NCBI GenBank assembly: GCA_043814315.1 | Contig: JBDRKE010000010.1 | Span: forward strand, 66,896 to 130,895 | Source: Candidatus Omnitrophota bacterium | GTDB taxonomy: Bacteria; Omnitrophota; Gorgyraeia; Gygaellales; Profunditerraquicolaceae | Length of the DNA stretch: 64,000 nt | Direction of reading: 5' to 3' | Part shown: positions 29,286 through 59,734 of the stretch, piece by piece | How the letters are laid out: every line of letters starts with the position of its first letter | How positions within the stretch are numbered: position 1 is the first letter of the stretch | Translations under genes and position numbers: made by a program | The notes under the pieces: model-generated | Told to the model about the DNA's origin: nothing | What the model saw: only the letters and a program-made list of their open reading frames with translations | The model's database searches: none

Positions 29286-29401
29286 AAATCAAGAGAGAGG
29301 AGGTGGTAGGTAGAGTAAATTTTTTGTTATTTCGAAAATGGTGTTATTGAAAAGTCGAAGGGCAGGTTTATCCCTCGCACCTGACAAGCCATAGATGGGT
29401 G

Positions 29402-29557
29402 CTCGGGATAATTTGCTGACCCGTAAGAGCGGGCAAATTAATTCGTTAACCCGTTATAGCTGGCGAATAATTTACTGAGCGGTTATAGCGGGGAAATTAA
29501 TCCGCTGACTAGTTATAGCAGACGGATAATTTGCTGACCCGTAATAGCGGGCAAATT
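29402..29557 (+). repeat. tandem array of five ~30-nt hairpin units directly upstream of a pilin SD
   Basis: Each unit has the form aatt-X5-...gtta/tagc...-X5'-aatt, and the outer stems differ between units (ttgc/gcaa, ttcg/cgaa, tccg/cgga). The first and last units (29406.. and 29524..) are identical except for one base. The array ends 1 nt before the aggagg SD. Confidence 0.85.
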
Positions 29558-29568
29558 AGGAGGAAAAG

Positions 29569-29964: not shown

Positions 29965-29988
29965 GGATATAAAAAAGACAGCATTATC

Positions 29989-30399: not shown

Positions 30400-30417
30400 G
30401 GACAGGAGAAAAAGCCG

Positions 30418-30831
30418 ATGAAGAAAACTGGCGTTACTTTGCTGGAAATGGTGATTACCGTTATGCTCATCGGTATTTTAGGTACACTGGGCTTTATCCA
30501 ATACGGGAATTACCGAGAAGAGGCTTTGGGCAAAGAGGCGCGCGCGAATTTGAGATTGATTATAGCTGCGCAAAGGATCTACAAGATAAAAACAAGCGCT
30601 TACTTCCCTGCTGCCGGAGGTACCGAGAGTAACACAGGCACCATTAATGATAATCTGAAAGTGCTTTTGTCCACTTTAGCGGGTTCTGGCCGGACATGGG
30701 ATTATCTGGTGACCTCTTCAGGCGGTTCAACCTGCGTTCAGGCAACGAGATTTAATGGGCCTGCAAAAACCTGGAGATTCCGCAATAATGAACCTGGCGG
30801 AGATCCTCTTGAAAATGCCACTTGTCCTTAA
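30418..30831 (+). CDS. type IV pilin / pseudopilin-like protein
   Basis: MKKTG|VTLLEMVITVMLIGILG. The C-terminus is similar to ORF 18..419. Confidence 0.8.
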   Translation: MKKTGVTLLEMVITVMLIGILGTLGFIQYGNYREEALGKEARANLRLIIAAQRIYKIKTSAYFPAAGGTESNTGTINDNLKVLLSTLAGSGRTWDYLVTSSGGSTCVQATRFNGPAKTWRFRNNEPGGDPLENATCP

Positions 30832-30836
30832 CCTTA

Positions 30837-31268
30837 ATGCCTATGTGTGAAAAAAGTATAATGGCCTTTACCCCGCACTTCATAAAGCCTCGTCTTAAAT
30901 CCTGCACCCCTCTTGTGCGGAATTTAGGACGATGTGCGGGGTTTACCTTGATTGAAATCTTAGTTTCTACGGTGCTCATTTCTTTGGTTTTAGTTGGGTT
31001 AGGGAATCTTTTTCTGGGCGGAAAAAAATGGATGCAGCACCGCCGCTACCAAATCACTGCCGGCCAAATAGCCAAGGTTTTTTTAGACCCTTTGCAGATG
31101 GATGTCCGTCAGGACCAATGGGGAAGTAACTGTTTAAGCAGCGGCATAGGTTGCCCAGGCACCCAAAATGTGGATGGCATTACCTACACTCCTGTTTATA
31201 ATATTTCGGCTGTTGGGAATTTGCGTCGCGTCCAGTTGACTATTAGCTGGAGCGAGCCCACCTCTTAG
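30837..31268 (+). CDS. minor pseudopilin-like protein with an unusually long leader
   Basis: Contains ..LGRCAG|FTLIEILVSTVLISLVLVGL. The start is uncertain (TTG 30822, ATG 30837 or ATG 30861), which gives a 27-40-aa leader. Confidence 0.6.
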   Translation: MPMCEKSIMAFTPHFIKPRLKSCTPLVRNLGRCAGFTLIEILVSTVLISLVLVGLGNLFLGGKKWMQHRRYQITAGQIAKVFLDPLQMDVRQDQWGSNCLSSGIGCPGTQNVDGITYTPVYNISAVGNLRRVQLTISWSEPTS

Positions 31269-31862
31269 ATGCCCGAAAATAAAAAAATTCCCGGAGTCAC
31301 TCTTATAGAATTAATTATCGCTATTGTCTTGATTTCATTCATTGTCTTAGGGATTGCGAATATTGATACCTTCTTCCATTTTCATGTCCTGAATGCGGAT
31401 CGCCGCATTAAGATTCAATATGAAACCTCCATTTCCTTAGAACACATGACGAAGGAGATGGTAAGGGCCATAGGAGATACCAATAAGCCTCCTGTGACCT
31501 TGCTTTTGCCTTCTGGTTCCATCTACCGCGGCATTAGGGTCTGGGTGGATGAAAACCAAAACGGAATTCAGGATACTTACCCCACGGACCGTGAAATCGG
31601 TTATCTCTACCAACAGGGCTCGAGTACGATTCAGTATTATAACCCCTGCCGAGGCCCGAGCTGCAACTGGGCAGGAAGCCTGCTGAATGAGACCCTATCT
31701 CGACAGATTGCCGAGTGTACCTTTACCTGGTCTGCGAGCACTGGAAACTTCGTTGATGTCAACATCACCTCGCGCCACAATACCTCCGTGGCCTCTTCTG
31801 TGGATAATCCCGAAATGAACATGATCGCCCGTATTCAAATGCCTGCCGTATCTACCCATTGA
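31269..31862 (+). CDS. minor pseudopilin-like protein (GspJ/PilW-like size)
   Basis: MPENKKIPG|VTLIELIIAIVLISFIVLGI. 197 aa. Confidence 0.7.
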   Translation: MPENKKIPGVTLIELIIAIVLISFIVLGIANIDTFFHFHVLNADRRIKIQYETSISLEHMTKEMVRAIGDTNKPPVTLLLPSGSIYRGIRVWVDENQNGIQDTYPTDREIGYLYQQGSSTIQYYNPCRGPSCNWAGSLLNETLSRQIAECTFTWSASTGNFVDVNITSRHNTSVASSVDNPEMNMIARIQMPAVSTH

Positions 31863-33547: not shown

Positions 33548-33686
33548 CAAATCCCAAATCCAAAATCCCAAATCCCAAACAAATCCCAAACACCAATTTC
33601 CAATATTTCAAACTTTAATGTTTCGGTCATTGGTCATTGGGGCATTGGTGCTTATTTGGAATTTGGTGCTTGGTACTTGGAATTTA
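33548..33686. repeat. modular hairpin element (aaatcccaaa.. / ..ttggaatttggtg arms)
   Basis: A/C-rich arm at 33548..33614 and complementary G/T-rich arm at 33626..33686. The right arm lies within the reading frame of the downstream gene. Confidence 0.8.
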
Positions 33687-35098: not shown

Positions 35099-35243
35099 TA
35101 AATTCAAATGTCAAAATCCAAAAAGAATCCCTGCCTTGCCGGCAGGCAGGCAAGGCAGGGAGGCAAATGTTAAAACAGAAGATTCATCGTTTTGAATTTT
35201 GTGCTTTGTGCTTATTTTGAATTTTGAGCTTTGTCATTTGAAT
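35099..35243. repeat. modular hairpin element (aattcaaatgtcaaaatccaaaa arm, ccctgccttgcc-ggcaggca-ggcaaggcaggg core)
   Basis: A 12-bp palindromic stem core lies at 35129..35160. The right arm ttttgaattttgtgctttgtgcttattttgaattttgagctttgtcatttgaat complements the left arm. Confidence 0.8.
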
Positions 35244-39553: not shown

Positions 39554-39976
39554 ATGAAAAATAGAGGTTTTACACTCGTAGAAATCATGATCGTTGTGGC
39601 CATTATCGCCTTGTTAGCTGCCATTGCTATACCGAACCTGTTGACAGCAAGAAGAACGGCTAACGAAGCAGCAGCCAAAGCCACAGTGCGCAGTCTCTCA
39701 ACTGCGGCAGAGACATATGCCACGTCTAATAGTGGCGTGTATCCGTCGGCTGTAGGGACAGCTGGTGCCTCATGTACTCAGTTGGCTTGCTTTATCAGTT
39801 CAGCTGCTAGCTACTGCGCAGATGCAGCAGGTACGCTTAGGGCTGTCCAGGGTTACAACTACAGATGCACCTTGACAACAGGCGGTTACAATTTTGTAGC
39901 TGAGCCTATGACCGTCGGCACAACGGGAAATTTCACTTATACAGCGTCTACAGGAGGCGTGATTACGCCTCTGTAA
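39554..39976 (+). CDS. type IV major pilin-like protein (PilA/GspG-like)
   Basis: MKNRG|FTLVEIMIVVAIIALLAAIAIPNLL is a canonical prepilin N-terminus. The gene has its own promoter candidate, a strong SD (ggaaggagg) and a terminator. Confidence 0.88.
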   Translation: MKNRGFTLVEIMIVVAIIALLAAIAIPNLLTARRTANEAAAKATVRSLSTAAETYATSNSGVYPSAVGTAGASCTQLACFISSAASYCADAAGTLRAVQGYNYRCTLTTGGYNFVAEPMTVGTTGNFTYTASTGGVITPL

Positions 39977-40000
39977 GGTGAGAGTTTTATAACGCTGATA

Positions 40001-40030
40001 AAAGGAGGAGAATCAAATCTCCTCCTTTTA
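40001..40030 (+). terminator. rho-independent terminator after the major pilin gene
   Basis: aaaggaggaga, loop atcaaa, then tctcctccttt, followed by a T/A-rich run. Confidence 0.7.
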
Positions 40031-40069
40031 TATATATACAGCCCTTCACAAAATTCGTTTCGGGCTGTT

Positions 40070-40103
40070 GATTACACAGATTTCTAAAAGATTACACAGA
40101 TTT
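40070..40103 (+). promoter_or_regulatory. 14-nt direct repeat pair spaced 20 nt (candidate operator)
   Basis: gattacacagattt occurs at 40070..40083 and 40090..40103, preceded by the hairpin cagccc...gggctg (40040..40068). Confidence 0.3.
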
Positions 40104-40122
40104 TTCCGTCGAGTCATAACTG

Positions 40123-42138
40123 GTGCAATCTATGATGACACAGACTAAATATAACAGAACAAAATTATTTATCAGTGGTTTTGTCTTAATCATATGTTGT
40201 GTCTTTTTAGTCTATTCAAATAGCCTCAACAGCCCCTTTATCTGGGATGACGAAGCTTTAGTCGTCGCAAACCCCTTAATTAAAGACGGGGGTTCTTTAG
40301 CAAAGATTTTTACCAGCGACCTTTACTACGGCTCGTCCACCGGTTCCAATTTTTATCGTCCCCTTCAGACCTTGACTTATCTGGTCAATTATCATTTCTG
40401 GCAATTAGAGCCTCGGGGTTACCATATCACAAACATTCTCTTACAAGGATTGGTTTCGTTTCTCGTTCTTTTATTGGCCTATTGGCTTTTGGGAGATTTT
40501 GCCGTTTCTTTGGCCGCTGCCTTACTTTTCGCTGTATGCCCTTTGCATACAGAAGCCGTTACCTATATTTCCGGAAGGGCCGAAATGCTCATGGGCCTAT
40601 TTTTAATTTCATCTTTTATTCTATTTCTTAAAAGCCTAGGCCCTAAGACTAAAAACAAAAACAACTTCTTCGGATTTTCCTTAATCTTATTTATTTGCGC
40701 GTTGCTTACTAAAGAATTATCCGTGCTTTTTCCTTTAGTCATTCTTTCCCATATTTTTTATTTTGCAAAAAACAGACTTAAGAAACCCGTGGTTCTTGCT
40801 AAAATCCTCCTGCCTTTCTTTGCGACGGCGGCATCGTACATTATTTTAAGGCTGTTTTTTCTAAACTTTATGACTCTTAGGCCTCCGGCATTAACGAAGT
40901 TTCCGTTCCTATTAAGAATCACGGTTTTTCCTAAAGTGCTTTTAACCTACCTGAAACTTTTGATTTTTCCCGTCGACCTGCACATGTCGAGAGAGTTCAT
41001 CAGGCCCACCACATTCGGGGGGTATTTTATTGCCTGGTTTGCCCTCGGTAGCATCATAGCGGGTGTCTTTTATGCCTTGCGCAATAATAGAGGCCGTAAA
41101 GTTGCCCCGTTTCTGTTATCATGGTTTTTGGTTTTCCTTCTGCCCCAATCCGGATTATTGGCCATAAACGCCTTCGTTGCGGAGCACTTTTTGTATCTAT
41201 CCTCTATAAGTTTTTTTATTGCCGTCGCCTATGTAATGAATAGATACCTGAGGCCTCGGTTATTTATTTTTGCCGTAGTGGGCCTATTGTTTTTTTACGG
41301 GACATTAACTTTTTCTCGTAATTATGAATGGTCGGACCCGGTTATTTTTTACGAGCGCATCTTAAAATTTTCACCCAGCAGTTTCCAGGCCCATAACAAC
41401 CTCGGGATACATTATCAGCGCCGAAGTCTTTATCAACAGGCCATACGGGAATACGAAAAAGCGCTAGAGATTATGCCTGACCTTTTGGAGGCCCGTTCTA
41501 ATTTAGCGGACATCTATTTTAAAATGGGCCGCTTGGACGATGCCAAGAGAGAGTATGCTTTCGTCGAAAAAACAGCGCCCGGAAGCAAGGCAGGCGAGAT
41601 CCAGAATAACATCGCCGCGATTTACGAATCACAAGGTTTATGGGATGAGGCGCTGGATAAATACAAGCTTGCCTTGCAACTGGATCCGGGTTTAGACTTC
41701 ACTCATTTTAATATGGCCAGGGTTTATTTTGTAAAAGGCGATTCTCCTTTGGCGGCACAGGAAATTCTTAATTCCCTTTCAAAATTAAACCTGCCCGAAA
41801 AGGAAGTGCCGATTCTTTTGAAATTGATTGAGGGGTATTTTGATTCAGGCAAGCGTCATACGCGCGCCCTGACCTTTTATAATGATCTGGGAGTGTTATT
41901 CGCGCAGAAAGAGTTTTTTGATGCCAGTATTGTGGCCTTTCAAAAAGTATTAGAACTGGATTTGCGATATAGTGATGCGCATTTTAATCTAGGTTTGGCT
42001 TATTGGAAGAAAGGCCTTAAGGCCAAAGCAGCGCTAGAATTCAAATACGCCCTTAAAATAAATCCCGGCCACGTGCAGGCTAAGGGTATGCTATCCGAGA
42101 TCAAAAAAGAAAATTTTTTTTATAGGATATCCTACTAA
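40123..42138 (+). CDS. polytopic membrane protein with a C-terminal TPR domain (GT-C / TMTC-like glycosyltransferase candidate)
   Basis: About 400 aa with 10 or more TM segments, followed by ~250 aa of TPR repeats (AHNNLGIHYQRRSLYQQAIREYEKALEI...). The start could be GTG 40123 or ATG 40132. Confidence 0.6.
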   Translation: MQSMMTQTKYNRTKLFISGFVLIICCVFLVYSNSLNSPFIWDDEALVVANPLIKDGGSLAKIFTSDLYYGSSTGSNFYRPLQTLTYLVNYHFWQLEPRGYHITNILLQGLVSFLVLLLAYWLLGDFAVSLAAALLFAVCPLHTEAVTYISGRAEMLMGLFLISSFILFLKSLGPKTKNKNNFFGFSLILFICALLTKELSVLFPLVILSHIFYFAKNRLKKPVVLAKILLPFFATAASYIILRLFFLNFMTLRPPALTKFPFLLRITVFPKVLLTYLKLLIFPVDLHMSREFIRPTTFGGYFIAWFALGSIIAGVFYALRNNRGRKVAPFLLSWFLVFLLPQSGLLAINAFVAEHFLYLSSISFFIAVAYVMNRYLRPRLFIFAVVGLLFFYGTLTFSRNYEWSDPVIFYERILKFSPSSFQAHNNLGIHYQRRSLYQQAIREYEKALEIMPDLLEARSNLADIYFKMGRLDDAKREYAFVEKTAPGSKAGEIQNNIAAIYESQGLWDEALDKYKLALQLDPGLDFTHFNMARVYFVKGDSPLAAQEILNSLSKLNLPEKEVPILLKLIEGYFDSGKRHTRALTFYNDLGVLFAQKEFFDASIVAFQKVLELDLRYSDAHFNLGLAYWKKGLKAKAALEFKYALKINPGHVQAKGMLSEIKKENFFYRISY

Positions 42139-42186
42139 CTTAATCTGTATCAAGCAGTTACCTAAAGACCCCACAAAAAAATTCCC

Positions 42187-42215
42187 TTGCGTAACTTGTT
42201 CTTTTGTGATAGAAT
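42187..42215 (+). promoter_or_regulatory. sigma70-like promoter candidate (extended -10)
   Basis: TTGCGT (42187..42192), a 17-nt spacer ending in TGa, then TAGAAT (42210..42215). It overlaps the nominal GTG start (42206) of the ORF track. Confidence 0.45.
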
Positions 42216-42235
42216 CATTCGAGTTAATTAAAAAA

Positions 42236-42655
42236 ATGATGAAAGGCCATGGCGCGAAGAGTTTTGTAACCATCATGATAGTGATTGCTATATCATCGCT
42301 TGTTGCTCGAACCGTGGTGGGCGTCTTCATAGACATGAACATGGGGCAGAATGAATCTAACGCAGAGGGAACCCTCAAACTCATAGCCGCTTCTTTGGAG
42401 AATTACGCCAACGATCATCGCGACAAATACCCGTCCAGTTTCTCTGCCTTGACACAATCCAAGATCGCCTATCTTGATAAAGATTACGTATCCGCTTCTC
42501 CTATAAAAGGTTACCTATACGGCTGTTTAAAGCTTGAGCCTTCTGGATACAATTGCTTTGCCGGGCCTACCCGATGCGGCTTGACTGGAAGAACCACTTA
42601 TAGCGTAACCACAGGAAGTCAGCTTGTTTCAGAGGGTTGCAAAAAGAGCGAATAA
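42236..42655 (+). CDS. atypical pilin-like protein (no Glu5 motif)
   Basis: MMKGHGAKSFVTIMIVIAISSLVARTVVGVF is followed by NAEGTLKLIAASLENYAND, a pilin-like alpha1-C pattern. It has four Cys and lies at the head of the minor-pilin operon. The start is placed at ATG 42236 because of the promoter candidate. Confidence 0.35.
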   Translation: MMKGHGAKSFVTIMIVIAISSLVARTVVGVFIDMNMGQNESNAEGTLKLIAASLENYANDHRDKYPSSFSALTQSKIAYLDKDYVSASPIKGYLYGCLKLEPSGYNCFAGPTRCGLTGRTTYSVTTGSQLVSEGCKKSE

Positions 42656-42667
42656 TAAGGAGAATTC

Positions 42668-43024
42668 ATGAGATTTTCTTATAACGCCTTTTCCTTAGTA
42701 GAATTAATGGTAGGTATAGTCATCTTGATGGTCGTTATCTCCGGATGCCTGCTTACGTATATTTACTGTGTCTTGCTCAACGATACGAGTCATAACATGG
42801 TAGTGGCGGTCAATGATGCCCAGTATGTTTTAGAACAGATTAAGTCCTTGGCGTATGGCGATATTGCCACATATACGGCTCCTGCGTTTAGCAATTTACC
42901 CAGTGAGGTCGTTACATTAAATAGTGCCATGGGGGCTTCGATGGGTACGATTACCGTAAATGTGAGCTGGCAGGAGAGAACGCGCTCAAGAACTCTTTCC
43001 TTGAAGACCTACGTGGCCAAATAA
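42668..43024 (+). CDS. minor pilin-like protein (PilV/GspI-like size)
   Basis: MRFSYNA|FSLVELMVGIVILMVVISG. 118 aa. Confidence 0.7.
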   Translation: MRFSYNAFSLVELMVGIVILMVVISGCLLTYIYCVLLNDTSHNMVVAVNDAQYVLEQIKSLAYGDIATYTAPAFSNLPSEVVTLNSAMGASMGTITVNVSWQERTRSRTLSLKTYVAK

Positions 43025-43025
43025 C

Positions 43026-43613
43026 ATGAAAAACTATTTATCCCAGGGCTGCGGATTCACGATTATTGAAGTTCTTTGCTCAGTTACCGTCGCGAGTTTC
43101 ATTGTTGGGGTTTTGTTTTACGCCTTAAGCAGCGCAGAGTATTCTCGGGCTGCCAGTGCCGCTAAGATCGAGGTGCAATCTGAGGTCAGGCGCAGCATCG
43201 ATTGGATTGTCAAGGACGTGCGTCAGGCCGTCAGTTGGGAAATCGCCGACGCTGACAACAGCCCGTCAAATACACACATTAAATTCCGGAAGGTCGAGGG
43301 TTGGAATACGACGGCAGAGACGTTTCTTTTAAGCGCCGATTACACCGAATACACGTACGATTCCGGTGATGATAGGATCACCCGCAGGCTCAGCGACTCA
43401 GATGATGAGACGAAACAGACATGGTCTTTAAACCATATTCAGCGAGCGCCCTTTTATACTTTGGATGGCTCGGGTAATGTTGTTGCTCTGAATGGCGGTG
43501 ATTTGCTCACCAGTAGAAAGCTGGTTATCGATATTAGGGGCAGTAAGCCCATTAAGGGCTCTTTAAATGCCACCGCAACGCTTATTGAAGAGGTGAAAAT
43601 AAGAAATGAATAA
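43026..43613 (+). CDS. minor pilin-like protein (PilW/GspJ-like size)
   Basis: MKNYLSQGCG|FTIIEVLCSVTVASFIVGV. 195 aa. Confidence 0.7.
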   Translation: MKNYLSQGCGFTIIEVLCSVTVASFIVGVLFYALSSAEYSRAASAAKIEVQSEVRRSIDWIVKDVRQAVSWEIADADNSPSNTHIKFRKVEGWNTTAETFLLSADYTEYTYDSGDDRITRRLSDSDDETKQTWSLNHIQRAPFYTLDGSGNVVALNGGDLLTSRKLVIDIRGSKPIKGSLNATATLIEEVKIRNE

Positions 43614-44478
43614 ACGCAGAGGAATCGTTTTAGTCTTTGCCCTTATGGTCATGCTCGTCCTGTCTATTTTATTGACTTCCTTTTATTTTCAGAGTGCCAA
43701 CGAAGGAAAGCTGGCGATGGTCTATGAAAATTCAACGCGCGCTTTTTGGTTAGCCGAGGCAGGTATGGCCCAGGCCTTGAGCACTTTTAGCGGGCCAACG
43801 TCATTCAGCGGCTTTATAGATGATGCCAATCATGCGTATAACGTGCAGGTGAGTTTTTTGTCAGGTATATACTATACTATTGTTTCTACCGGTACGGTCA
43901 CATCCCCGGCCACAGGAACGACGAATAGGGCTATAAGCGCCACGGTAAGAACAGGAGTGATTGACCCCACGAAATTTAAATATGGCATCGAAACAACCAC
44001 GGATTTGATTATCAAGGGGAGCGTGGATATCAATCCCAGCGGCAGCTGGAAAGAATACTCCACATTGGATTTTGCGGATCTGTTCGGAATAACGAAGGCG
44101 GAGATGAAGGATAATGCCACGCATGTTTATGCATCGGATACTTTCGATGGTCAGCCCGTTGACGGCATCACTTGGGTGGATGTTGATGACTCCATGAATA
44201 TCGCGGGAAATCTCGTCGGTAGTGGTATTTTAGTTATCAACGGAAATGTGCATTTCTCAGGGACCGTTCAATTTAACGGCATCATATATGTCATCGGAAA
44301 ATTGACGATGACGGGAACGGTGGATATATTTGGAAGCGTTCTGGCGGAGAGCAGTACCACCGTAGACACAGAACTCAAAGGAAACGTCGGGATCAATTAC
44401 AGCCTATCGGAGATAACGAATGCCCTAGGTTCCGTTCAATATATAACGAAAGAAATGGTTTCCTGGCAGGAAATATAA
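43606..44478 (+). CDS. PilX/GspK-like minor pilin-like protein
   Basis: MNKRRGIVLVFALMVMLVLSILLTSFY...STRAFWLAEAGMAQAL is the PilX_N pattern. 290 aa. Confidence 0.65.
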   Translation: MNKRRGIVLVFALMVMLVLSILLTSFYFQSANEGKLAMVYENSTRAFWLAEAGMAQALSTFSGPTSFSGFIDDANHAYNVQVSFLSGIYYTIVSTGTVTSPATGTTNRAISATVRTGVIDPTKFKYGIETTTDLIIKGSVDINPSGSWKEYSTLDFADLFGITKAEMKDNATHVYASDTFDGQPVDGITWVDVDDSMNIAGNLVGSGILVINGNVHFSGTVQFNGIIYVIGKLTMTGTVDIFGSVLAESSTTVDTELKGNVGINYSLSEITNALGSVQYITKEMVSWQEI

Positions 44479-44483
44479 TAGTC

Positions 44484-45512
44484 ATGAATATGAAATGGCT
44501 CAATGGGTTTAAGGAAAGAGTCGCCAAAGAAAGATTTACGTTCGGCCTGGATATCGGCAGCCGGCAGATCAAGATCGTCAAGTTGAAATTATTCAAAGAC
44601 GCTATTGAGCTGTGCGGTTTTGAGGTCGTGCCGGTGCAGCTGGATGTGGGAGCGGTTCTTAAAAAGTTCAAGCATTCTTTAGGTATCTCTTATGCCAACG
44701 TCGGCGTCTGCGGTTCCTCAACCGTGATAAGGTATGTGGATTTTCCCCTGATGAATCAGGCCGAGCTAAAACAGGCGTTGCGGTTTGAGGCACAAAAACT
44801 CATCCCTTTTGCCTTGAGTGAAGTCATTATAGACGGCTGCATTTTAAGGGAAAACGTAAAGGATAATAAAATGCTTGTTTTGATTGCAGCGGTCAAAAAA
44901 GACCTGATCCAGCAACGTCTGAAACTGCTGGAAGAGTCAGGATTAAAGGTTAAAATTATTGATATTGATTCGGTTGCGCTGGTTAATACCTTTAATCATA
45001 ATTACGCGCAGGATGAATTTATGAAGAATAAGACGATCGGCCTGCTTAACATCGGGTCTTCTTTAAGCAGCCTCAATATATTGGAAAATGGTGTTCCCCG
45101 TTTAAGCAGGGATATCCAGATAGCCGGTAATAATTTTACCCAGAAACTTGTCGATGCCTTCGGTATTGATTTTAAAGCCGCTGAAGAATTAAAGCTCAAT
45201 CCGGATAACGATAAAAAAGACAAAGTTGCCGTAGGCCTAGAGACGGTGCTGGCCAGCCTGGCAGGGGAAGTCAGGGTGTCTTTTGATTATTACGAAAGCC
45301 AAAACACCACTTCCGTCTCAAAGATTTTCTTAAGCGGGGGCGGCAGCCAGTTCATCGGTTTCAAGGATAGGCTCTCTGACCTTTTGGGGATAGACGTGCA
45401 GTACTGGGACTCTTTAAAACACATAACTATTTCAAATGAAATTGATTCTCAAAAAGTGAATAATCTGTCCGGCCAGTTAGCGGTGGCGGTAGGCCTGGCA
45501 TTGCGGGAGTGA
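44484..45512 (+). CDS. pilM: type IV pilus assembly ATPase-fold protein PilM
   Basis: 342 aa. Contains FGLDIGSRQIKIVKL, LRFEAQKLIPF and LSGGGSQ, the actin-like fold of the PilM family. Confidence 0.88.
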   Translation: MNMKWLNGFKERVAKERFTFGLDIGSRQIKIVKLKLFKDAIELCGFEVVPVQLDVGAVLKKFKHSLGISYANVGVCGSSTVIRYVDFPLMNQAELKQALRFEAQKLIPFALSEVIIDGCILRENVKDNKMLVLIAAVKKDLIQQRLKLLEESGLKVKIIDIDSVALVNTFNHNYAQDEFMKNKTIGLLNIGSSLSSLNILENGVPRLSRDIQIAGNNFTQKLVDAFGIDFKAAEELKLNPDNDKKDKVAVGLETVLASLAGEVRVSFDYYESQNTTSVSKIFLSGGGSQFIGFKDRLSDLLGIDVQYWDSLKHITISNEIDSQKVNNLSGQLAVAVGLALRE

Positions 45513-45554
45513 CGCCGAAAAAATTATTTCAGGGAATTTGGAATAGGTTAAAAG

Positions 45555-46130
45555 ATGATCAAGATTAATTTATTGCCGGAAGAATTCAACGCTAAGGCCG
45601 CAAGTCATAAAGTCAGGGTTGTTATCGAGGTCAAGTATTTAATTTATTTTATACCTCTTACTTTGGTTACCCTGCTTCTTTTTCACTCCTATCTGGGCGC
45701 GTTGCTGGTGGCCAGGTATAATCAGATAGCCGGGCTTAATAAAAAATGGCAAAGCCTCGAACCCGAGAGAAAAAAACTAGAAATTTTTAATAAAGAGAAT
45801 ACCTTGTACACACAGGATTCTTCTGCAGTTAAGACATTAGTTGAGCAGAGGGTAGTTTGGTTCGAAAAATTAAATGCCCTTAGCAATAGCCTTATGCCCG
45901 GTATTTGGTTTACCGAGCTTTCTATCGCTCCCAGAATTTTTACATTAAAGGCCTCGGTTGTTTCTTTGCAGAAAGAAGAGATGGGTATTATCAAGAAATT
46001 TATCGATAATCTAAAAACTGATGCCGCTTTCTTTAAGAACTTTAACAGCCTGGAGTTAAGTTCCGTACAGAGAAGAACTATGGGTAGTTTTGATGTGCTG
46101 GATTTCACTTTAGCCGGGACATTGAATTAA
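45555..46130 (+). CDS. pilN: type IV pilus assembly protein PilN
   Basis: MIKINLLPEE start, a single TM segment and ~190 aa, located directly after pilM. Confidence 0.8.
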   Translation: MIKINLLPEEFNAKAASHKVRVVIEVKYLIYFIPLTLVTLLLFHSYLGALLVARYNQIAGLNKKWQSLEPERKKLEIFNKENTLYTQDSSAVKTLVEQRVVWFEKLNALSNSLMPGIWFTELSIAPRIFTLKASVVSLQKEEMGIIKKFIDNLKTDAAFFKNFNSLELSSVQRRTMGSFDVLDFTLAGTLN

Positions 46131-46131
46131 G

Positions 46132-46746
46132 ATGAAAATAGAACAATTATTGAATGAACCGCGTTTCGTTGCCTTGCGGGATAGGTTACGCATCGATGAT
46201 AGAAAGCTGTCTTTGATCATCGTTATTTTTTTAACCCTGGTGATTTATCTGGATGTGCAATTCATCATGAAAAGACAGTTTGAAGGCCTAGGGAAGTTAG
46301 GGTCGGAAATAGCAAGGTTAAAAACAGATCTGGAGTTTGTAAATAAAAATTTGCCGATTATGCAGAGTTTAGAAGGTAAGCAGGCCCAGCCGCAAGATCT
46401 TACTGCGACGAAAGCCAAGAAGCTCATGCGGGAAGAAGAAATCAATGCTTTGTATCAGGATATTTCCGTGTTGGCCAAAAGAAATAATGTGAGGATTGTG
46501 TTGATGAAGCCGAAACGCGAATCCCCTGCTTCCAAAGTGGAAAAGGCTGCCATATCGGAAAATTACACACCGCTGTTGCTTTCTTTGGATCTGGTCTGTA
46601 ATTATCATCGCCTGGCCGGTTTTATAAATGATTTAGAGAATGGCGAGGCCCTGCTTATCGTGCAGAATATAAAAATCATGCCTCAGCAGGACGATCTCTC
46701 TGGCCAAAAAGTGGATCTGGTGTTAAAGACATATTTAGGGAGATAG
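46132..46746 (+). CDS. pilO: PilO-like pilus assembly protein
   Basis: TM segment, a coiled coil, then YTPLLLSLDLVCNYHRLAGFINDLENGEALLIVQNIKI. Confidence 0.65.
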   Translation: MKIEQLLNEPRFVALRDRLRIDDRKLSLIIVIFLTLVIYLDVQFIMKRQFEGLGKLGSEIARLKTDLEFVNKNLPIMQSLEGKQAQPQDLTATKAKKLMREEEINALYQDISVLAKRNNVRIVLMKPKRESPASKVEKAAISENYTPLLLSLDLVCNYHRLAGFINDLENGEALLIVQNIKIMPQQDDLSGQKVDLVLKTYLGR

Positions 46747-46747
46747 G

Positions 46748-47137
46748 ATGCGTATGTTTAAACCGAAAATAGGAATCAGTATAGCGATTATTTCGTTCTT
46801 CGTTCTTCGTTTTTCGTTCTTCGTTTACAGCCAGGAGAAGAACACCGATGAAACTAAAAGTGCGCGTAATCCCTTTATGCCTTTGGTCACAGCCGATGGC
46901 CGCCTGATCAACCTCGACAAAGATAAGACAAGGGCGGATTTGGTGGTGGAGGGTACGATGTTTGACAAGCATGGCCGTTCCTACGCGATCGTGAACGGTC
47001 TGGTCGTAGAAGTCGCAGATACAATAGACGGTTTCAGAGTCTTGAAGGTCGAACAGGGAAAGGTCACTTTTATGAAGGATGGGCAAACCAGGGTCGTAGA
47101 AGTAAAGAGTGAAGAGAAAAAGGAGGAGGAAAGGTGA
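46748..47137 (+). CDS. PilP-like small periplasmic protein
   Basis: Signal/TM segment and a beta-domain (LVVEGTMFDKHGRSYAIVNGLVVEVADTIDGFRVLKVEQGKVTF), directly upstream of and overlapping the secretin gene. Confidence 0.45.
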   Translation: MRMFKPKIGISIAIISFFVLRFSFFVYSQEKNTDETKSARNPFMPLVTADGRLINLDKDKTRADLVVEGTMFDKHGRSYAIVNGLVVEVADTIDGFRVLKVEQGKVTFMKDGQTRVVEVKSEEKKEEER

Positions 47138-48912
47138 AAAAAATTAAATTCTTATGCCTCGGTGTCTTACTTTGTCTCATCGTATTAGGTTTTTATTTCT
47201 ACGCTTTTGCGCAGCAAAAGGAAACTTCCGTTGATCCTGTCTCGCCCGAGAATCCGAAAGTGCAAGAAGAGGCTTCATCAAAGAGCCAGGATTCGTTTGA
47301 AGAGTCAGATCACTCCTTTGCAGGAGGCAGCTTATCTGCTTCCGAGAACGTGACTCTGGATTTCAAGGAAGCTGATATTCAGAATGTCCTAAAAATCATC
47401 TCTTATAAATCAGGGGTTAACATCGTCAGTACTCCCGACGTTATAGGGAATGTTACCATCAAACTCGTTGATGTCCCCTGGGAGATGGCCTTGGATGTGC
47501 TCTTGAAGACCTACGGCTTTGGTTACCAAAAACAGGGGAATATTATTCTGGTTACTAAATTGGAGAACATATCCAAGATACAGGCGGAGGAAACGTTACA
47601 GACAGAGATTTTTTCGCTCAAATTCCTTGACGCCCAGGACGCTCAGAAGATTCTTATTTCGTTGCTTTCTCCGCGGGGCAAAATCTCCGTCCTCTACACC
47701 CGAGGCATGAAAGGTTGGCAGTTCGGCACTTTCAAGATTGGAAAAGAAACGGCATCCACTACGGGCCTAGCCAGAGAGAGAGAAGAGCCGGTTAAGTCCG
47801 AAACAATTTCCATTGAAAGGACGGCTGAGGGGGATACGGTGTCGCGTAAAGCCGAATTTGAACCCTCCATCAAATCCAAGACATTAGTTATCACGGACAC
47901 AGCCGCTTCTTTGGACAGGATCCGAAATGTTATTCTTCCCATGATTGATAAAAAACCAAAGCAGGTCCTCATTGAAACGAAACTTATAGAGGTCAATAGG
48001 AATAAGTTAAGAGACTTAGGCGTGGATTTCGGCACAGGCGCGACGGGCGCAACATCCAGTTCGATTGAGTATACGCCTGCGGGGAAAAAGTCCGGCATTG
48101 ATACTTCCCAGATAGGCGGACAAGTTTTGGGTTCCCAGTTTAAGCCTTCCATTTTTAGCGCGCTGGAAGGTTCAACCCTGGCGCCGGGGACAGAGCCTTA
48201 CAATTTGGGCGCTGAGCTGGTATTTAGAAAATTGACCGGAACGAATTTTCAGGTTATATTGCATGCCCTTGAAGAGGATGCCAATACAAACACTTTATCC
48301 AGCCCAAAGATATTAACGTTGGATAATCAAGAGGCTTCCATCCTGGTAGGCTTTCATACGCCTATCCTTACTTCTACGGTAACGGCTGGTTCAACCACGG
48401 GAGGAACCGGAGCCACGGTCACGCAGAGCTTAGACTATTATCAGGAAATAGGCATCCGTCTCAATGTCGTGCCTCAGATCAGCGAAGAAGGCTACATCAA
48501 TATGATCATTCATCCCAGCATCACCTCGACGACTTCTAACGTCACGGCGACATCCACGGCCAGCGGTGTGACGACCAGCACAAGTTATCCTGTCATCGAT
48601 GTGCGCGAAGCCCAGACCCAGGTACTCCTGAAAGACGCAGAGACTATCGTCATCGGAGGCCTGCTCAAGGATGTTAAGAGCAAGCAAACCATAGGCGTTC
48701 CTTTCTTAAGCGCCATTCCTTTTCTGGGAGCCTTGTTCAGACGGGATACCTATGATACGGAAAAAGTAGACCTGTTGATATTCATCACCGCCCGCATTAT
48801 TAAAGACGGGGAGTTCTCTCAAGAGGATATTGCGAAATTGCAGAAGAACTTAAGCCCTATCGAGAGCGAAGCCAAAGAGAAAGCTGTTGTCAAGGACAAG
48901 AAGAAAAAGTAG
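47134..48912 (+). CDS. pilQ: secretin (PilQ/GspD family)
   Basis: Signal peptide, an N0-like domain (VTLDFKEADIQNVLKIISY...) and a secretin domain (SSPKILTLDNQEASI, LKDAETIVIGGL, VPFLSAIPFLGALFR). Confidence 0.9.
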   Translation: MKKIKFLCLGVLLCLIVLGFYFYAFAQQKETSVDPVSPENPKVQEEASSKSQDSFEESDHSFAGGSLSASENVTLDFKEADIQNVLKIISYKSGVNIVSTPDVIGNVTIKLVDVPWEMALDVLLKTYGFGYQKQGNIILVTKLENISKIQAEETLQTEIFSLKFLDAQDAQKILISLLSPRGKISVLYTRGMKGWQFGTFKIGKETASTTGLAREREEPVKSETISIERTAEGDTVSRKAEFEPSIKSKTLVITDTAASLDRIRNVILPMIDKKPKQVLIETKLIEVNRNKLRDLGVDFGTGATGATSSSIEYTPAGKKSGIDTSQIGGQVLGSQFKPSIFSALEGSTLAPGTEPYNLGAELVFRKLTGTNFQVILHALEEDANTNTLSSPKILTLDNQEASILVGFHTPILTSTVTAGSTTGGTGATVTQSLDYYQEIGIRLNVVPQISEEGYINMIIHPSITSTTSNVTATSTASGVTTSTSYPVIDVREAQTQVLLKDAETIVIGGLLKDVKSKQTIGVPFLSAIPFLGALFRRDTYDTEKVDLLIFITARIIKDGEFSQEDIAKLQKNLSPIESEAKEKAVVKDKKKK

Positions 48913-48987: not shown

Positions 48988-49290
48988 ATGGTCAGAGTGA
49001 AATTCATTTTTACAAAAAAAGGACACATGAGGTTTATCTCGCATCTGGACCTGATGCGCCTATTGATGCGAGCGTTTCGACGCAGCGGTCTGCCTCTTAA
49101 AATGACAGAGGGTTTTAATCCGCATCCGAAGCTCAGTATGCGGCGTGCTTTAAAATTAGGGCTTGAAAGCGACCACGAAGAGGCCGCGATCGTTTTAAGG
49201 GAAGAGTTGGGACTGAAGGAATTTGGTGAGCGTCTGTCAAAACAATTACCCGAGGGAATTCATATAAAAGAGGTTGAAAAAGATGCCTAA
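48988..49290 (+). CDS. short DUF2344 (TIGR03936-like) protein, N-terminal part only
   Basis: The sequence RFISHLDLMRLLMRAFRRSGLPLKMTEGFNPHPKLSMRRALKLG matches the family N-terminus. It is only 100 aa and overlaps the rng start. Confidence 0.5.
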   Translation: MVRVKFIFTKKGHMRFISHLDLMRLLMRAFRRSGLPLKMTEGFNPHPKLSMRRALKLGLESDHEEAAIVLREELGLKEFGERLSKQLPEGIHIKEVEKDA

Positions 49291-50725
49291 AGAAATTTTT
49301 ATAAATGTTGAGCCTCAGGAAAAACGCGTCGCGATTATTTCCGACGCCAGGCTTGAGGAGTTTACCATTGAACGGCCCCAGGATAGGACTATTGTCGGCA
49401 ATATCTATAAAGGTAAAATAGAGGCGGTTATGCCTTCCATAGGCGCAGCGTTTGTGGATATTGGTTTAGCTAAGAAAGGCTTTCTTTATTTATCCGAGAT
49501 AGAATCTGCCTTTGAAGGGCTGGAGCAGCCTAAGGTAGCGGTGAAGCGGGAAATAAAAAAAGGCCAGGAGATACTGGTGCAGGTGGTCAAGGAGTCATTT
49601 GGGACAAAGGGGCCGAGGTTATCGACGCAGATTGGCTTGGCAGGCAGGTGTTTGGTCCTTCTGCCTCATGAGAACCAGATCGGCGTATCCAGACGGATAG
49701 AGGATGAGGAGGAGAGAAGGCGTTTGAAGCTAGTGCTACGCGAGATCAAGCTGCCTAAGAATGTCGGTTATATCGTGCGCACGGCAGCCAGCGGCAAATT
49801 AAAGAAAGACATAGCTCAGGACGCGCAATTCCTCTTTAAGTTATGGAAAAGGCTGGAGCGCATCATCGCACGCAAGAGCGCTCCCAGCCTTATCTACGAA
49901 GAGTACGATTTGACGTTGAGGGCCATAAGGGATTCTTTCACAGACGAGGTCGCCAGGCTGGTCGTTGATTCGAAGCCAGAGTATTATCGGATACAGAATT
50001 TTATGAGGCATTTCTTAAGCCACTTAACGAAAAGAATCGAGTTGTACAAAGGGGATAATTTATTCGAGGATAAGGGGATCGAGAAACAGATCAACAGGAT
50101 TTTTGAAAGCCATGTTTATTTAAAATCCAAGGCCTACCTGATTATAGAGCCTACCGAAGGCTTGGTGGTCATCGACGTCAATAGCGGAGGCTTTAAAAGG
50201 AAGTTCGGCCAGGAAGAAACCGCTTTTAAGGTGAATTGCGAGGCAGCGGAGGAAGCCGCCCGCCAACTGGTTTTACGCGATTTAGGCGGTATCATTGTCA
50301 TAGACTTTATTGACATGGAAAGAGAGCATCACCGGCGGGAGGTTTTGAATATTCTCAAGAACGCTTTGAGCCGCGATAAAGCCAAATACGATATCTTAGG
50401 TATCTCTAAGTTTGGGTTGGTAGAAATGACGCGGGAGCGCGTTCATAAGACCGCCCACATGCTTTCTTATCAGACGTGTTCTTACTGCCACGGCAGGGGC
50501 AAGGTCAAGTCGCCAACGACCACGGCCATCTATACGCTTAAGGAGCTCAAGAGGTTTTTAAAAGAGAAGAAAGTAGAACAGGTGAATCTGACTTTGAATC
50601 CTGCCGTTATAGACGAAATCTTAAATCACAAGGAAAATATTAGACTCATCGAGACAAGGTTTAAGACCAGGGTCAATCTGATTTCAAACCCTCAAGTTCA
50701 CACCGAAGAGATAAAAATCTCCTGA
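49274..50725 (+). CDS. rng: Rne/Rng family ribonuclease (RNase G-like)
   Basis: 483 aa. S1 domain (GNIYKGKIEAVMPSIGAAFVDIG), the catalytic region IIEPTEGLVVIDVNSG, and Zn-link Cys residues (CSYCHGRG). Confidence 0.88.
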   Translation: MKKMPKEIFINVEPQEKRVAIISDARLEEFTIERPQDRTIVGNIYKGKIEAVMPSIGAAFVDIGLAKKGFLYLSEIESAFEGLEQPKVAVKREIKKGQEILVQVVKESFGTKGPRLSTQIGLAGRCLVLLPHENQIGVSRRIEDEEERRRLKLVLREIKLPKNVGYIVRTAASGKLKKDIAQDAQFLFKLWKRLERIIARKSAPSLIYEEYDLTLRAIRDSFTDEVARLVVDSKPEYYRIQNFMRHFLSHLTKRIELYKGDNLFEDKGIEKQINRIFESHVYLKSKAYLIIEPTEGLVVIDVNSGGFKRKFGQEETAFKVNCEAAEEAARQLVLRDLGGIIVIDFIDMEREHHRREVLNILKNALSRDKAKYDILGISKFGLVEMTRERVHKTAHMLSYQTCSYCHGRGKVKSPTTTAIYTLKELKRFLKEKKVEQVNLTLNPAVIDEILNHKENIRLIETRFKTRVNLISNPQVHTEEIKIS

Positions 50726-54596: not shown

Positions 54597-54708
54597 GGTT
54601 AAATCCCTATTTAAAAATCCCAAACAAAACATTTGGATTTGGGATTTGTTTGGTAGTATTGGGATTTTGGATTTGTTTGGGATTTGGGATTTGGAAATTG
54701 GGATTTTC
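54597..54708. repeat. modular hairpin element (aaatccc.. / tttgggattt.. arms)
   Basis: Short A/C arm at 54601..54630 and a longer G/T arm at 54631..54708 that contains gggatttgtttggtagtattgggatt (54641..54666). Confidence 0.8.
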
Positions 54709-57895: not shown

Positions 57896-58022
57896 ATAGT
57901 CGCTTCTTTCCATCCGTTATCCTTTCGTTATCGTCTTTAGATTCAAAAATCTCAAAGTGAAGGGGGGTATATTTTAAAATTCAAAATTAAAAATCCAAAA
58001 TTCAAAAATAAAGGAGAAATAA

Positions 58023-59564
58023 ATGAATGAAACAAAATCAGAACTGGAAGAGCTGTATAATCAGAGTATCAGGCTTATCAAAGAAGGGCAGGTGATAACG
58101 GGCAAGATCGTTACGATAAAGACCAAAGAGGTACTGGTGGATGTAGGATTTAAATCAGAGGGGATCGTCCCGATTGCGGAATTCAGTTCACAGGATCTGG
58201 AAGCCGGCAAGGAACTTGAGTTTTTTGTCGAATCCATAGAGAATGATGCGGGTAACATCGAGCTGTCGCGCGAAAAAGCCATACGCATCCAGGGATGGGA
58301 CAGGATCGTCAAGTTTTCTCAGACCGGCGAGTTGGTGGAAGGCAGGCCTATTAAAAAGGTCAAAGGGGGATTTCTAGTTGATGTGATGGGTATCGAGGGG
58401 TTTCTCCCTTCCTCGCTTTCGGCTTTCAAGGGTGTGGCCGAAAGAGAAATCATGTACAAGCCTTTTAAGTTCAAGATCGTCAAGATAAACAACTTAAGAA
58501 GAAGCATCATTGTCAGCCGCAGGGAGGCGGTGCAGAAAGCAAAAGAGGAGGTCAAGGATAAGATTTGGCAGGACTTGAAGATCGGTAATATTTATCCCGG
58601 CACGGTCAAGGCCATAACGGATTTTGGTGCCTTTGTGGACTTGGGAGGAGTGGATGGCCTCTTGCATATCACGGATATGTCCTGGTCTAAGATCAGCCAT
58701 CCTTCGGAAATTGTGGCCTTGGGAGACAAGATCGAAGTCATGGTGTTGAATTTTGACAAGGAATCGGGAAAGATATCGCTCGGCTTAAAGCAGAGGCTCC
58801 CTGACCCCTGGCAGGATATAGAGAAGAAATTTATCGTCGGTTCCAAAATCAAAGGCAAGGTCGTCAATATCCTTCCTTAAGGAGTATTTGTGGAACTAGA
58901 GAAGGGTATCGAGGGGCTCATCCATGTTTCTGAAATCTCTTGGACAAAAAGGATCAATAATCCGAATGAGATGTTTGCTATCGCAGATATGGTGGAAACT
59001 CAGATCCTTAACGTAGATAAGGATTCCCGCAGGATATCCTTGAGCCTGAAACAGCTCGAGCAGAATCCGTGGCTGGAAGCCGAATCTAAATACCCTGCCG
59101 GAACCAAAATCACGGGAAAAGTGAGAGGATTCACAGATTACGGAGCCTTTGTTGAGTTGGATAGTAACCTGGAAGGGATGATCCATGTATCGGATATCTC
59201 CTGGACAAAAAGGATAGCGCATCCTCAGGATGTTCTTAAGAAAGGTCAGAAGATTGAGGCCATAGTACTCTCTGTGGACAGCCAGAATCGCCGTATCGTG
59301 TTAGGCTTAAAGCAGCTGCAGTCAAACCCCTGGCCCGAGATCGCTGCCAAATATCCTTTAGATACCGTCTTGGAAGCAGAGACTGTCAGTATCACAGAGT
59401 TCGGCGTATTTGTTAAGATAGAAGAGGAACTCGAAGGTTTGGTGTATGCCAGCGAGATAGACAGGGAGACCGTTTCACAATTGAAACCCGGGGATAAGTT
59501 TAAGGTAAAAATAATCAAGGTGGATGTGGAGCAGAACAAGATTGGACTGTCGGCAAAGATATAA
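58023..59564 (+). pseudogene. rpsA: 30S ribosomal protein S1, contiguous frame interrupted by one in-frame TAA (58878..58880)
   Basis: ORFs 58023..58880 and 58890..59564 are in the same frame. Across the junction the translation reads [29 protein letters not shown], where the other S1 repeats of this protein have F/Y-G-A/V-F-V. The label pseudogene is provisional; a sequencing error or a split gene is equally possible. Confidence 0.85.
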
Positions 59565-59567
59565 TGT

Positions 59568-59734
59568 TAAATCCAAAATCCAAATATTACCAAATCCAAA
59601 ATAAATCCCAATCTCTCCCGCATAAGCGGGATCCCGCTAGACGTTACAAGTTGCGCGGGAAAAATCCCAAATAGTTTTGGATTTTGGATTTGGGATTTGT
59701 TTGGTAGTATCGGTATTAGTGGGATTTGGGGTTT
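59568..59734. repeat. modular hairpin element (aaatccaaaa / ttttggattt arms, gcgggatcccgc core)
   Basis: Left arm aaatccaaaatccaaatattaccaaatccaaaataaatccc. The core is cccgcataagcgggatcccgc...gcgcgggaaaaa, with the palindrome at 59626..59637. The right arm is agttttggattttggatttgggatttgtttggtagtatcggtatt. Confidence 0.85.

What the first reader, a model, noticed from the sequence alone, without database searches (positions are those of the whole stretch)
58878..58892. Single in-frame TAA splits rpsA exactly inside an SD-like AAGGAG followed by GTG
S1 is otherwise one continuous frame of 513 codons (58023..59564). The stop replaces the aromatic residue of the conserved S1-domain motif: the translation reads ..[10 protein letters not shown].., whereas sister domains have DFGAFV, DYGAFV and EFGVFV. 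A single-base change from TAT or TAC would explain it.

TAA is used as a genuine terminator elsewhere in the window (argG and argH), so genetic-code reassignment is unlikely. The stop lies within tAAGGAG (58879..58884) and is followed after 5 nt by GTG (58890), so termination-reinitiation could produce two polypeptides. However, the break falls inside an OB fold. The alternatives are a sequencing or assembly error, a population variant, or readthrough.
Basis: partly seen in the sequence, partly recalled or inferred. Interest (0 to 1): 0.55.

Follow-up and report, generated by a model that had tools for sequence, protein, structure and literature searches.

The report
One-base premature stop in rpsA
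In one uncultured Omnitrophota genome assembly, a single base change turns an otherwise invariant tyrosine codon of the ribosomal protein S1 gene into a stop; nothing points to an evolved split gene, so it is most likely an assembly error or a very young defective allele.

Summary
TAA at 58878-58880 is codon 286 of a 513-codon rpsA frame (58023-59564). It lies inside AAGGAG and is followed after 5 nt by an in-frame GTG.

The gene is the six-domain bS1 of a Candidatus Omnitrophota MAG. GenBank annotates the two halves as separate CDSs, MFH1457928.1 (285 aa) and MFH1457929.1 (224 aa).

All 120 closest proteins and all 160 related loci have Tyr here (117 TAC, 43 TAT). None has an in-frame stop anywhere in S1. 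Of 217 positions that are at least 98% conserved among relatives, the window differs only at this one. dN/dS is about 0.05 on both sides of the stop.

TAA is the commonest true terminator in the window. About 60 other genes were checked, and only one short ORF (48988-49290) raises a doubt.

The 'SD + GTG' context is largely a by-product of encoding Tyr-Gly-Val-Phe-Val: 46 of 160 relatives already carry GGAG plus GTG.

So this is a private, very recent one-base lesion or a consensus error. It is not a conserved split gene, a recoding site or a code change. No same-species sibling or reads were available to separate error from a real allele.

If real, the product matches the barely viable E. coli rpsA delta-4-6 allele, and a restart at the GTG is mechanistically plausible. 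Interest is low.

The parts
58023..59564 (+). rpsA (ribosomal protein bS1, six S1 domains): one 513-codon frame plus the terminal TAA, interrupted only at codon 286.
   Evidence: Translation. Pfam S1 domains in both halves. 91-92% identical to uninterrupted 513-aa Omnitrophota S1 proteins. Collinear with solved bS1 chains, E = 3e-119 to E. coli 6h4n_y.
58011..58016 (+). AAGGAG Shine-Dalgarno sequence of rpsA itself, 6 nt upstream of ATG 58023.
   Evidence: Read directly from the sequence.
58023..58880 (+). N-terminal ORF of 285 aa: S1 domains 1-3 plus about the first 15 residues of domain 4. GenBank CDS MFH1457928.1.
   Evidence: Corresponds to the E. coli rpsA delta-4-6 product (PMC3858243).
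58878..58880 (+). In-frame TAA at codon 286. It replaces an invariant Tyr codon (TAC or TAT), so base 58880 is the changed base.
   Evidence: Aligns with E. coli bS1 Tyr290 in domain 4.
58879..58884 (+). SD-like AAGGAG. It consists of the last two bases of TAA, the Gly codon GGA and the G of the Val codon GTA.
   Evidence: GGAG at this place in 60 of 160 intact relatives.
58874..58883 (.). Perfect 10-bp palindrome TCCTTAAGGA, completed by the changed base 58880. With TAC or TAT it would be an imperfect palindrome.
   Evidence: There are 73 such palindromes in the window, covering 1.2% of its bases, so this may be coincidence.
58890..59564 (+). Possible restart ORF of 224 aa from GTG (normally Val290): domain 4 without its first strands, plus domains 5 and 6. 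GenBank CDS MFH1457929.1.

Best explanation
The TAA is a private, single-base replacement (TAC or TAT to TAA, base 58880) of an invariant tyrosine codon. It lies in domain 4 of an otherwise intact and strongly constrained six-domain rpsA of one Candidatus Omnitrophota metagenome-assembled genome.

It is not an evolved feature: not a split gene, a programmed recoding site or a reassigned codon. Most likely the organism's working gene reads Tyr, and the TAA is either a consensus or assembly error or an unfixed (minor or transient) nonsense allele captured by the assembly.

The SD-like AAGGAG and the GTG downstream are ordinary coding bases (TA[A]-GGA-G... GTG = Tyr-Gly-Val-Phe-Val) that happen to look like a restart signal.

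Shown: the lesion is unique, the rest of the gene is undamaged, and the context pre-exists in relatives. Inferred: the lesion is an error or an unfixed allele rather than the fixed state of the organism.
For: 1. Tyr at this column in 120 of 120 best protein relatives, all 512-521 aa and uninterrupted.
2. TAC (117) or TAT (43) in 160 of 160 related loci from GTDB genomes and metagenome contigs, with no in-frame stop anywhere in S1 in any of them.
3. Of 217 positions at least 98% conserved among relatives, the window deviates only at 286. Against the three nearest relatives, dN/dS is 0.049-0.054 upstream of the stop and 0.038-0.049 downstream, so there is no relaxation after the stop.
4. TAA is the main genuine terminator in the window.
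5. No other adjacent same-frame ORF pair looks like one interrupted gene. About 60 other ORFs match full-length family profiles or have no hit. The one exception is the 100-aa ORF at 48988-49290, which matches only positions 1-96 of the 176-position DUF2344 profile and was not followed up. On this evidence the rpsA stop is an isolated lesion rather than a genome-wide property.
6. The GGAG plus GTG context is present in 46 of 160 intact relatives.
7. No other protein in the 5.8-billion-sequence collection ends or starts at this break, apart from the window's own two GenBank CDSs, each a one-member cluster seen on one contig.
8. Established knowledge: in E. coli, S1 lacking domains 4-6 supports only extremely slow growth (PMC3858243). 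A fixed allele of this kind would therefore be strongly counter-selected.
Against: - No reads and no same-species sibling could be examined. The nearest relatives are only 91-92% identical in protein. An exact 26-mer around the site, with N at the changed base, has no match in the metagenome collection. Error versus real allele is therefore not resolved.
- The rest of the window looks like a clean assembly, which argues against a generally error-prone consensus.
- Only 0.25-0.5% of possible nonsense sites would have so good a restart context. This is what one might expect if a real nonsense allele had survived because of a restart, although the argument is post hoc.
- The E. coli domain 1-3 fragment is barely viable rather than lethal, and chloroplast S1 has only three domains (5x8p_8 aligns to residues 22-272). 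A real allele is therefore not impossible.
Confidence: 0.62

Rival explanations
1. The TAA is real and is the majority allele. It is a very young nonsense mutation that is tolerated. Ribosomes terminate at UAA after Pro285 and release a 285-aa domain 1-3 protein that still binds the 30S subunit and acts as a minimal S1. Some ribosomes restart at GTG 58890 using AAGGAG (5-nt spacer) and make a 224-aa fragment carrying domains 5-6.
For: - The stop/SD/start geometry equals a genuine junction in the same window: TAA-TAAGGAG-5 nt-ATG at 42653-42670.
- rpsA's own SD is also AAGGAG.
- Such a context is expected at only 0.25-0.5% of random nonsense sites.
- E. coli S1 domains 1-3 retain 30S binding, and the delta-4-6 allele still allows growth (PMC3858243).
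- Chloroplast S1 has three domains.
- GenBank's annotation calls exactly these two CDSs.
- A second Omnitrophota MAG (L161) has rpsA broken in domain 4 by a different lesion, leaving a domain 1-3 ORF and a domain 5-6 ORF.
Against: - No relative shares the split.
- The break is inside an OB fold, and residues YGVF would be in neither product.
- Domains 4-6 are under the same strong purifying selection as domains 1-3 in this lineage, so their loss should be costly.
- E. coli delta-4-6 grows extremely slowly.
- The SD and GTG are coding by-products.
- The L161 coincidence is biased by having searched with the 285-aa fragment.
Confidence: 0.24
2. The TAA is real but is read through. Either a near-cognate tRNA (tRNA-Tyr would restore the wild-type residue) or a suppressor tRNA encoded elsewhere in the genome supplies enough full-length S1.
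For: - Intact downstream frame with dN/dS of 0.04-0.05.
- From general knowledge, not tested here: near-cognate readthrough of UAA inserts Tyr, Gln or Lys, and a C-terminal proline (here Pro285) weakens termination in E. coli.
Against: - UAA is the most used terminator here, so an efficient UAA suppressor would damage most genes.
- No suppressor tRNA lies in the window; the only tRNA is Ala-CGC.
- No relative has a stop here, so there is no conserved recoding signal.
- Spontaneous readthrough is far too low for a stoichiometric ribosomal protein (general knowledge).
Confidence: 0.06
3. rpsA is an old, decaying pseudogene, its function having been taken over by another copy. Alternatively, TAA is reassigned as a sense codon in this organism.
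For: Only the presence of a disabling in-frame stop.
Against: - There is no further lesion.
- None of the other 216 highly conserved positions is changed, and dN/dS is about 0.05 after the stop.
- TAA ends 38 of 68 long open stretches, including rpsA itself.
- No other interrupted gene turned up among about 60 checked, apart from one unresolved short ORF at 48988-49290.
Confidence: 0.03

Closest known systems
Engineered E. coli rpsA delta-4-6 allele (Duval et al. 2013, PMC3858243)
   Same: The 285-aa product ends about 15 residues into domain 4. It is in effect S1 domains 1-3, the minimal protein that still binds the 30S subunit and allows growth in E. coli. The stop aligns with E. coli Tyr290 in domain 4.
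   Different: The E. coli allele is an engineered deletion that gives extremely slow growth. Here the lesion is a single nonsense codon with an intact downstream frame, in an uncultured Omnitrophota, and nobody has shown that it exists in cells.
Translational coupling / termination-reinitiation junctions of bacterial operons
   Same: A stop codon overlaps an AAGGAG, followed 5 nt later by a start codon. This is identical in form to the real junction at 42653-42670 in this window.
   Different: Real junctions separate independently folding proteins and are conserved. This one cuts an OB fold, is absent from all 160 related loci, and is built from ordinary Tyr/Gly/Val codons.
Internal-stop 'pseudogenes' and split CDSs in metagenome-assembled genomes
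   Same: An isolated disabling lesion in a conserved single-copy gene, annotated as two CDSs. Another example in the same gene is L161 (GCA_026387405.1), with a 190-nt deletion plus frameshift in domain 4.
   Different: Nothing notable. The restart-like context is the only unusual trait.
Naturally short S1 proteins (chloroplast/cyanobacterial three-domain S1, e.g. PDB 5x8p chain 8)
   Same: Chloroplast S1 aligns with residues 22-272 of this protein, i.e. domains 1-3 only. This shows that a three-domain S1 can serve a ribosome.
   Different: Those are evolved, conserved short genes. In Omnitrophota all sampled relatives keep six domains under strong constraint.

Membership tests
Bacterial ribosomal protein bS1 (rpsA) | Tandem S1 (OB-fold) RNA-binding domains, PF00575 | tested here: met
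   PF00575 in three stretches in each half, E = 2.8e-33 and 6.2e-45.
Bacterial ribosomal protein bS1 (rpsA) | Collinear full-length similarity to experimentally placed bS1 | tested here: met
   Residues 9-438 align with E. coli bS1 6h4n_y residues 6-442, E = 3e-119. Residues 6-507 align with 9zcd_A.
Bacterial ribosomal protein bS1 (rpsA) | Orthologous position and high identity to the rpsA of relatives | tested here: met
   91-92% identity to 513-aa Omnitrophota S1 proteins. L161 has the same neighbours: PGM, acyltransferase, S1, tyrS, polysaccharide synthase.
Bacterial ribosomal protein bS1 (rpsA) | Uninterrupted reading frame | tested here: not met
   TAA at codon 286.
Evolved split gene with termination-reinitiation | Stop, SD and start codon within a few nucleotides | tested here: met
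   TAA 58878-58880, AAGGAG 58879-58884, GTG 58890. Same form as the junction at 42653-42670.
Evolved split gene with termination-reinitiation | The split is conserved in related genomes | tested here: not met
   None of the 160 loci and none of the 120 proteins carry it. The only proteins ending or starting at the break are the window's own.
Evolved split gene with termination-reinitiation | The break separates independently folding units | tested here: not met
   The break lies about 15 residues inside S1 domain 4, at the residue aligned to E. coli Tyr290.
Evolved split gene with termination-reinitiation | Two polypeptides are actually made | not testable with these tools
   Needs proteomics or ribosome profiling.
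Stop-codon reassignment or programmed readthrough | The codon is not used as a terminator, and in-frame copies recur in many genes | tested here: not met
   TAA ends 38 of 68 long open stretches. rpsA is the only same-frame ORF pair that forms one gene. About 60 other ORFs are full-length or without a hit, with one unresolved short ORF at 48988-49290.
Stop-codon reassignment or programmed readthrough | A cognate suppressor tRNA is present | tested here: inconclusive
   The only tRNA in the window is Ala-CGC. The rest of the genome was not available.
Decaying pseudogene | Relaxed constraint or further lesions after the disabling mutation | tested here: not met
   dN/dS is 0.038-0.049 downstream against 0.049-0.054 upstream. 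None of the other 216 highly conserved positions is changed.

The most novel reading that the evidence does not exclude
The TAA is the true, fixed state of this Omnitrophota population. S1 is then made as two polypeptides: a ribosome-bound domain 1-3 minimal S1, and a free domain 5-6 fragment produced by termination-reinitiation at TAAGGAG-N5-GTG. Together with the independent domain-4 deletion in another Omnitrophota MAG (L161), this would mean that domain 4 of S1 is recurrently expendable in these slow-growing, possibly host-dependent bacteria.
Probability: 0.06. Interest if true: 0.45.

Novelty: already known. Interest (0 to 1): 0.1.

Why it matters
As it stands, this matters mainly for data hygiene. 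A universal single-copy marker gene is deposited as two 'S1 RNA-binding domain-containing protein' CDSs (MFH1457928.1 and MFH1457929.1). That can mislead marker-gene phylogenies, completeness estimates and protein clustering.

If the allele were real and fixed, it would be a natural counterpart of the E. coli rpsA delta-4-6 experiment. It would show how little of S1 a free-living or host-dependent bacterium can live with, and it would give a natural case of reinitiation inside a ribosomal protein gene. The evidence does not favour that reading.

Tried and rejected
1. Searching for the source contig or siblings by exact protein look-up failed. The S1 halves, PGM and the 60999 ORF are not on record with DNA. 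The listing of cluster members gave only GenBank protein accessions, each a one-member cluster.
2. An exact 26-mer around the stop, with N at the changed base, has no match in metagenome contigs.
3. Protein-guided scans of GTDB genomes and metagenome contigs returned 160 loci. The best is only 91% identical, so there is no same-species comparison. A few loci are the same contig held in both collections.
4. Searches with each half alone, looking for truncated relatives, found only the window's own CDSs at the break. They also found one differently broken rpsA (P0161/L161). P0347 sits at a contig end and is uninformative.
5. Code reassignment was rejected from stop-codon usage.
6. An old pseudogene was rejected from dN/dS and conserved-site counts.
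7. A low-quality assembly as a general explanation was rejected. About 60 other ORFs match full-length profiles or have no hit. The one exception is the 100-aa ORF at 48988-49290, which covers only half of the DUF2344 profile and was not followed up.
8. No Rfam family lies near rpsA; the only hit in the window is tRNA-Ala.
9. The 10-bp palindrome completed by the mutation could fit quasi-palindrome template switching or a sequence-specific sequencing error. I treat it as a coincidence at about the 1% level, because 73 such palindromes occur in the window.

Full report
**Observation.**
- The frame opening at ATG 58023 runs to TAA 59562-59564. It has 513 codon positions plus the terminator.
- Its only interruption is TAA at 58878-58880, which is codon 286. 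The translation there reads [18 protein letters not shown].
- AAGGAG occupies 58879-58884, the spacer TATTT occupies 58885-58889, and an in-frame GTG lies at 58890.
- The mechanical ORFs are 58023..58880 (285 aa) and 58890..59564 (224 aa).
- Both halves carry Pfam S1 domains.

**What the gene is.**
- The repaired protein is 80-92% identical to the 120 best-scoring database relatives. These are 512-521 aa long (98 of them exactly 513 aa), are uninterrupted, and are named 30S ribosomal protein S1 of Candidatus Omnitrophota wherever a source names them.
- It is collinear with solved bS1 chains.
- The region around the stop aligns best with E. coli bS1 residues 265-354, which is domain 4. Codon 286 falls on E. 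coli Tyr290.
- Neighbouring genes are phosphoglucomutase, an acyltransferase, then rpsA, tyrS and a polysaccharide synthase. This order recurs in a related MAG.
- The window's own genome is an NCBI MAG with a contig of 133,396 bp. There the two ORFs are deposited as separate CDSs, MFH1457928.1 (285 aa) and MFH1457929.1 (224 aa, starting at the GTG). Each is a one-member cluster seen on one contig.

**Is the stop shared?**
No.
- All 120 best protein relatives have Tyr at this column.
- I fetched 80 loci from GTDB species representatives and 80 from metagenome contigs. A few are the same contig held twice.
- All 160 have a Tyr codon here (117 TAC, 43 TAT). All align over essentially the whole protein, and none has an in-frame stop anywhere in S1.
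- Searches with each half alone were meant to surface truncated relatives. They found nothing ending or starting at this break except the window's own CDSs.
- The nearest relatives are only 91-92% identical, and an exact 26-mer around the site has no match in the metagenome collection. No same-species sibling was available.

**State of the rest of the gene.**
- Among 217 positions that are at least 98% conserved in the 160 relatives, the window differs at exactly one, the stop.
- Pairwise dN/dS against the three nearest relatives is 0.049-0.054 for codons 1-285 and 0.038-0.049 for codons 287-513.
- The part downstream of the stop is therefore as constrained as the part upstream. The lesion is either extremely young relative to the divergence from sampled relatives, or it does not exist in the organism.

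**Genome-wide explanations.**
- TAA ends 38 of the 68 long open stretches on the + strand, against 17 TGA and 13 TAG. This rules out TAA as a sense codon.
- The only same-frame ORF pair that makes one gene is rpsA. The other such pairs are separate genes, for example tandem pilin-like ORFs.
- About 60 other ORFs either match family profiles over their full length or have no hit. The one exception is a 100-aa ORF at 48988-49290 that covers only half of the DUF2344 profile. The assembly is not generally error-ridden.
- The only tRNA in the window is Ala-CGC.

**The SD + GTG context.**
- By chance this context is uncommon. Of 7283 possible single-base nonsense substitutions in the window's genes, 0.25% (6-mer SD) to 0.5% (5-mer SD) would be followed within 15 nt by an in-frame NTG with such an SD. 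With a 4-mer core the figure is 3.5%.
- At this codon, however, the context comes from the protein sequence. Tyr-Gly-Val-Phe-Val is often encoded TAY GGA GTN TTY GTG.
- 60 of 160 intact relatives have GGAG after the Tyr codon, 107 have GTG at the Val codon, and 46 have both.
- The A that turns ACGGAG or ATGGAG into AAGGAG is the mutation itself. The context was therefore not built after the split.
- It would nevertheless work as a restart signal. A genuine junction in the window reads TAA-TAAGGAG-AATTC-ATG (42653-42670), with the same SD and the same 5-nt spacing. rpsA's own SD is AAGGAG.

**Consequences if the stop is real.**
- The 285-aa product is S1 domains 1-3 plus a stub of domain 4.
- Duval et al. 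2013 report the E. coli equivalent (PMC3858243). Domains 1-3 retain 30S binding. Deleting domains 5-6 is tolerated. Deleting domains 4-6 allows only extremely slow growth. Deleting domains 3-6 is lethal.
- Chloroplast S1 has three domains and aligns with residues 22-272 here.
- A real allele would therefore be severely deleterious but not necessarily lethal.
- A restart product would lack YGVF and the first strands of the domain-4 OB fold. It would carry domains 5-6 without the ribosome-binding part.

**Verdict.**
This is a private one-base lesion of a Tyr codon in an otherwise perfect, strongly constrained rpsA.
- I put about 0.62 on a consensus error or unfixed variant.
- I put about 0.24 on a real, young allele with termination and possibly restart.
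- I put about 0.06 on readthrough or suppression.
- I put about 0.03 on an old pseudogene or a code change. The small remainder is unassigned.

Nothing supports an evolved split gene. The decisive test is the read pile-up of the source assembly, which these tools cannot reach.

**Seen in passing.**
- A second Omnitrophota MAG (L161, GCA_026387405.1) has rpsA broken differently. A 190-nt deletion corresponding to window 58823-59012 removes nearly all of domain 4 and shifts the frame, giving CDSs of 276 and 174 aa. Broken rpsA genes therefore occur sporadically in such assemblies. That both breaks lie in domain 4 is biased by my query.
- The changed base completes a perfect 10-bp palindrome, TCCTTAAGGA.
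- An AAATCC(A/C)AAAT heptad-like motif is strongly enriched in intergenic regions, including both flanks of rpsA.

Noticed in passing
L161 5001-6352 (GCA_026387405.1, JAPLLV010000010.1); corresponds to window 58823-59012: Another Omnitrophota MAG with the same gene order has rpsA broken by a different lesion. A 190-nt deletion removes nearly all of S1 domain 4 and shifts the frame, giving CDSs of 276 aa and 174 aa (TTG start overlapping the TGA stop). It could be real or an assembly artefact. That both lesions hit domain 4 may reflect my use of the 285-aa query.
   Followed up: partly
window 1599-1623, 18546-18612, 33549-33573, 35114-35224, 54637-54692, 57977-58001, 59569-59698: A heptad-like A-rich motif, AAATCC(A/C)AAAT, occurs 28 times (up to 1 mismatch) against 4.9 expected; none of 100 shuffles reached 28. 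Almost all copies are intergenic, on both strands, and flank rpsA on both sides. Downstream of rpsA, 16-nt perfectly complementary arms (59569-59584 and 59676-59691) enclose a GC-rich inner hairpin. It may be a terminator or a REP-like element. There is no Rfam match.
   Followed up: partly
window 58874-58883: The changed base 58880 completes a perfect 10-bp palindrome, TCCTTAAGGA; with TAC or TAT it would be imperfect. This fits quasi-palindrome template-switch mutation or a sequence-specific sequencing error. However, 73 such palindromes exist in the window (1.2% of bases), so it may be chance.
   Followed up: partly
window 48988-49290: A 100-aa ORF matches only positions 1-96 of the 176-position DUF2344 profile and abuts or overlaps the RNase G ORF (49274-50725). 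It may be a truncated gene or a naturally short form.
   Followed up: no
window 22022-31862 and 39554-48912: Two separate clusters resembling type IV pilus or type II secretion systems (PilM, PilO, secretin, T2SSE ATPase, T2SSF, N-methyl pilin-like ORFs). Three tandem pilin-like ORFs of about 135 aa lie in the same frame (29569-30831). Two of them end with the identical sequence GGCAATTGGCAG-TAA.
   Followed up: no
window 1-64000: Every ORF with a family match lies on the + strand, and GC skew is positive almost throughout (cumulative skew rises steadily). The window is therefore a long co-oriented stretch, presumably on the leading strand.
   Followed up: no
window 42653-42670: A genuine gene junction, TAA-TAAGGAG-AATTC-ATG, has exactly the SD and spacing seen at the rpsA internal stop. 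It is useful as a positive-control template for restart tests.
   Followed up: yes
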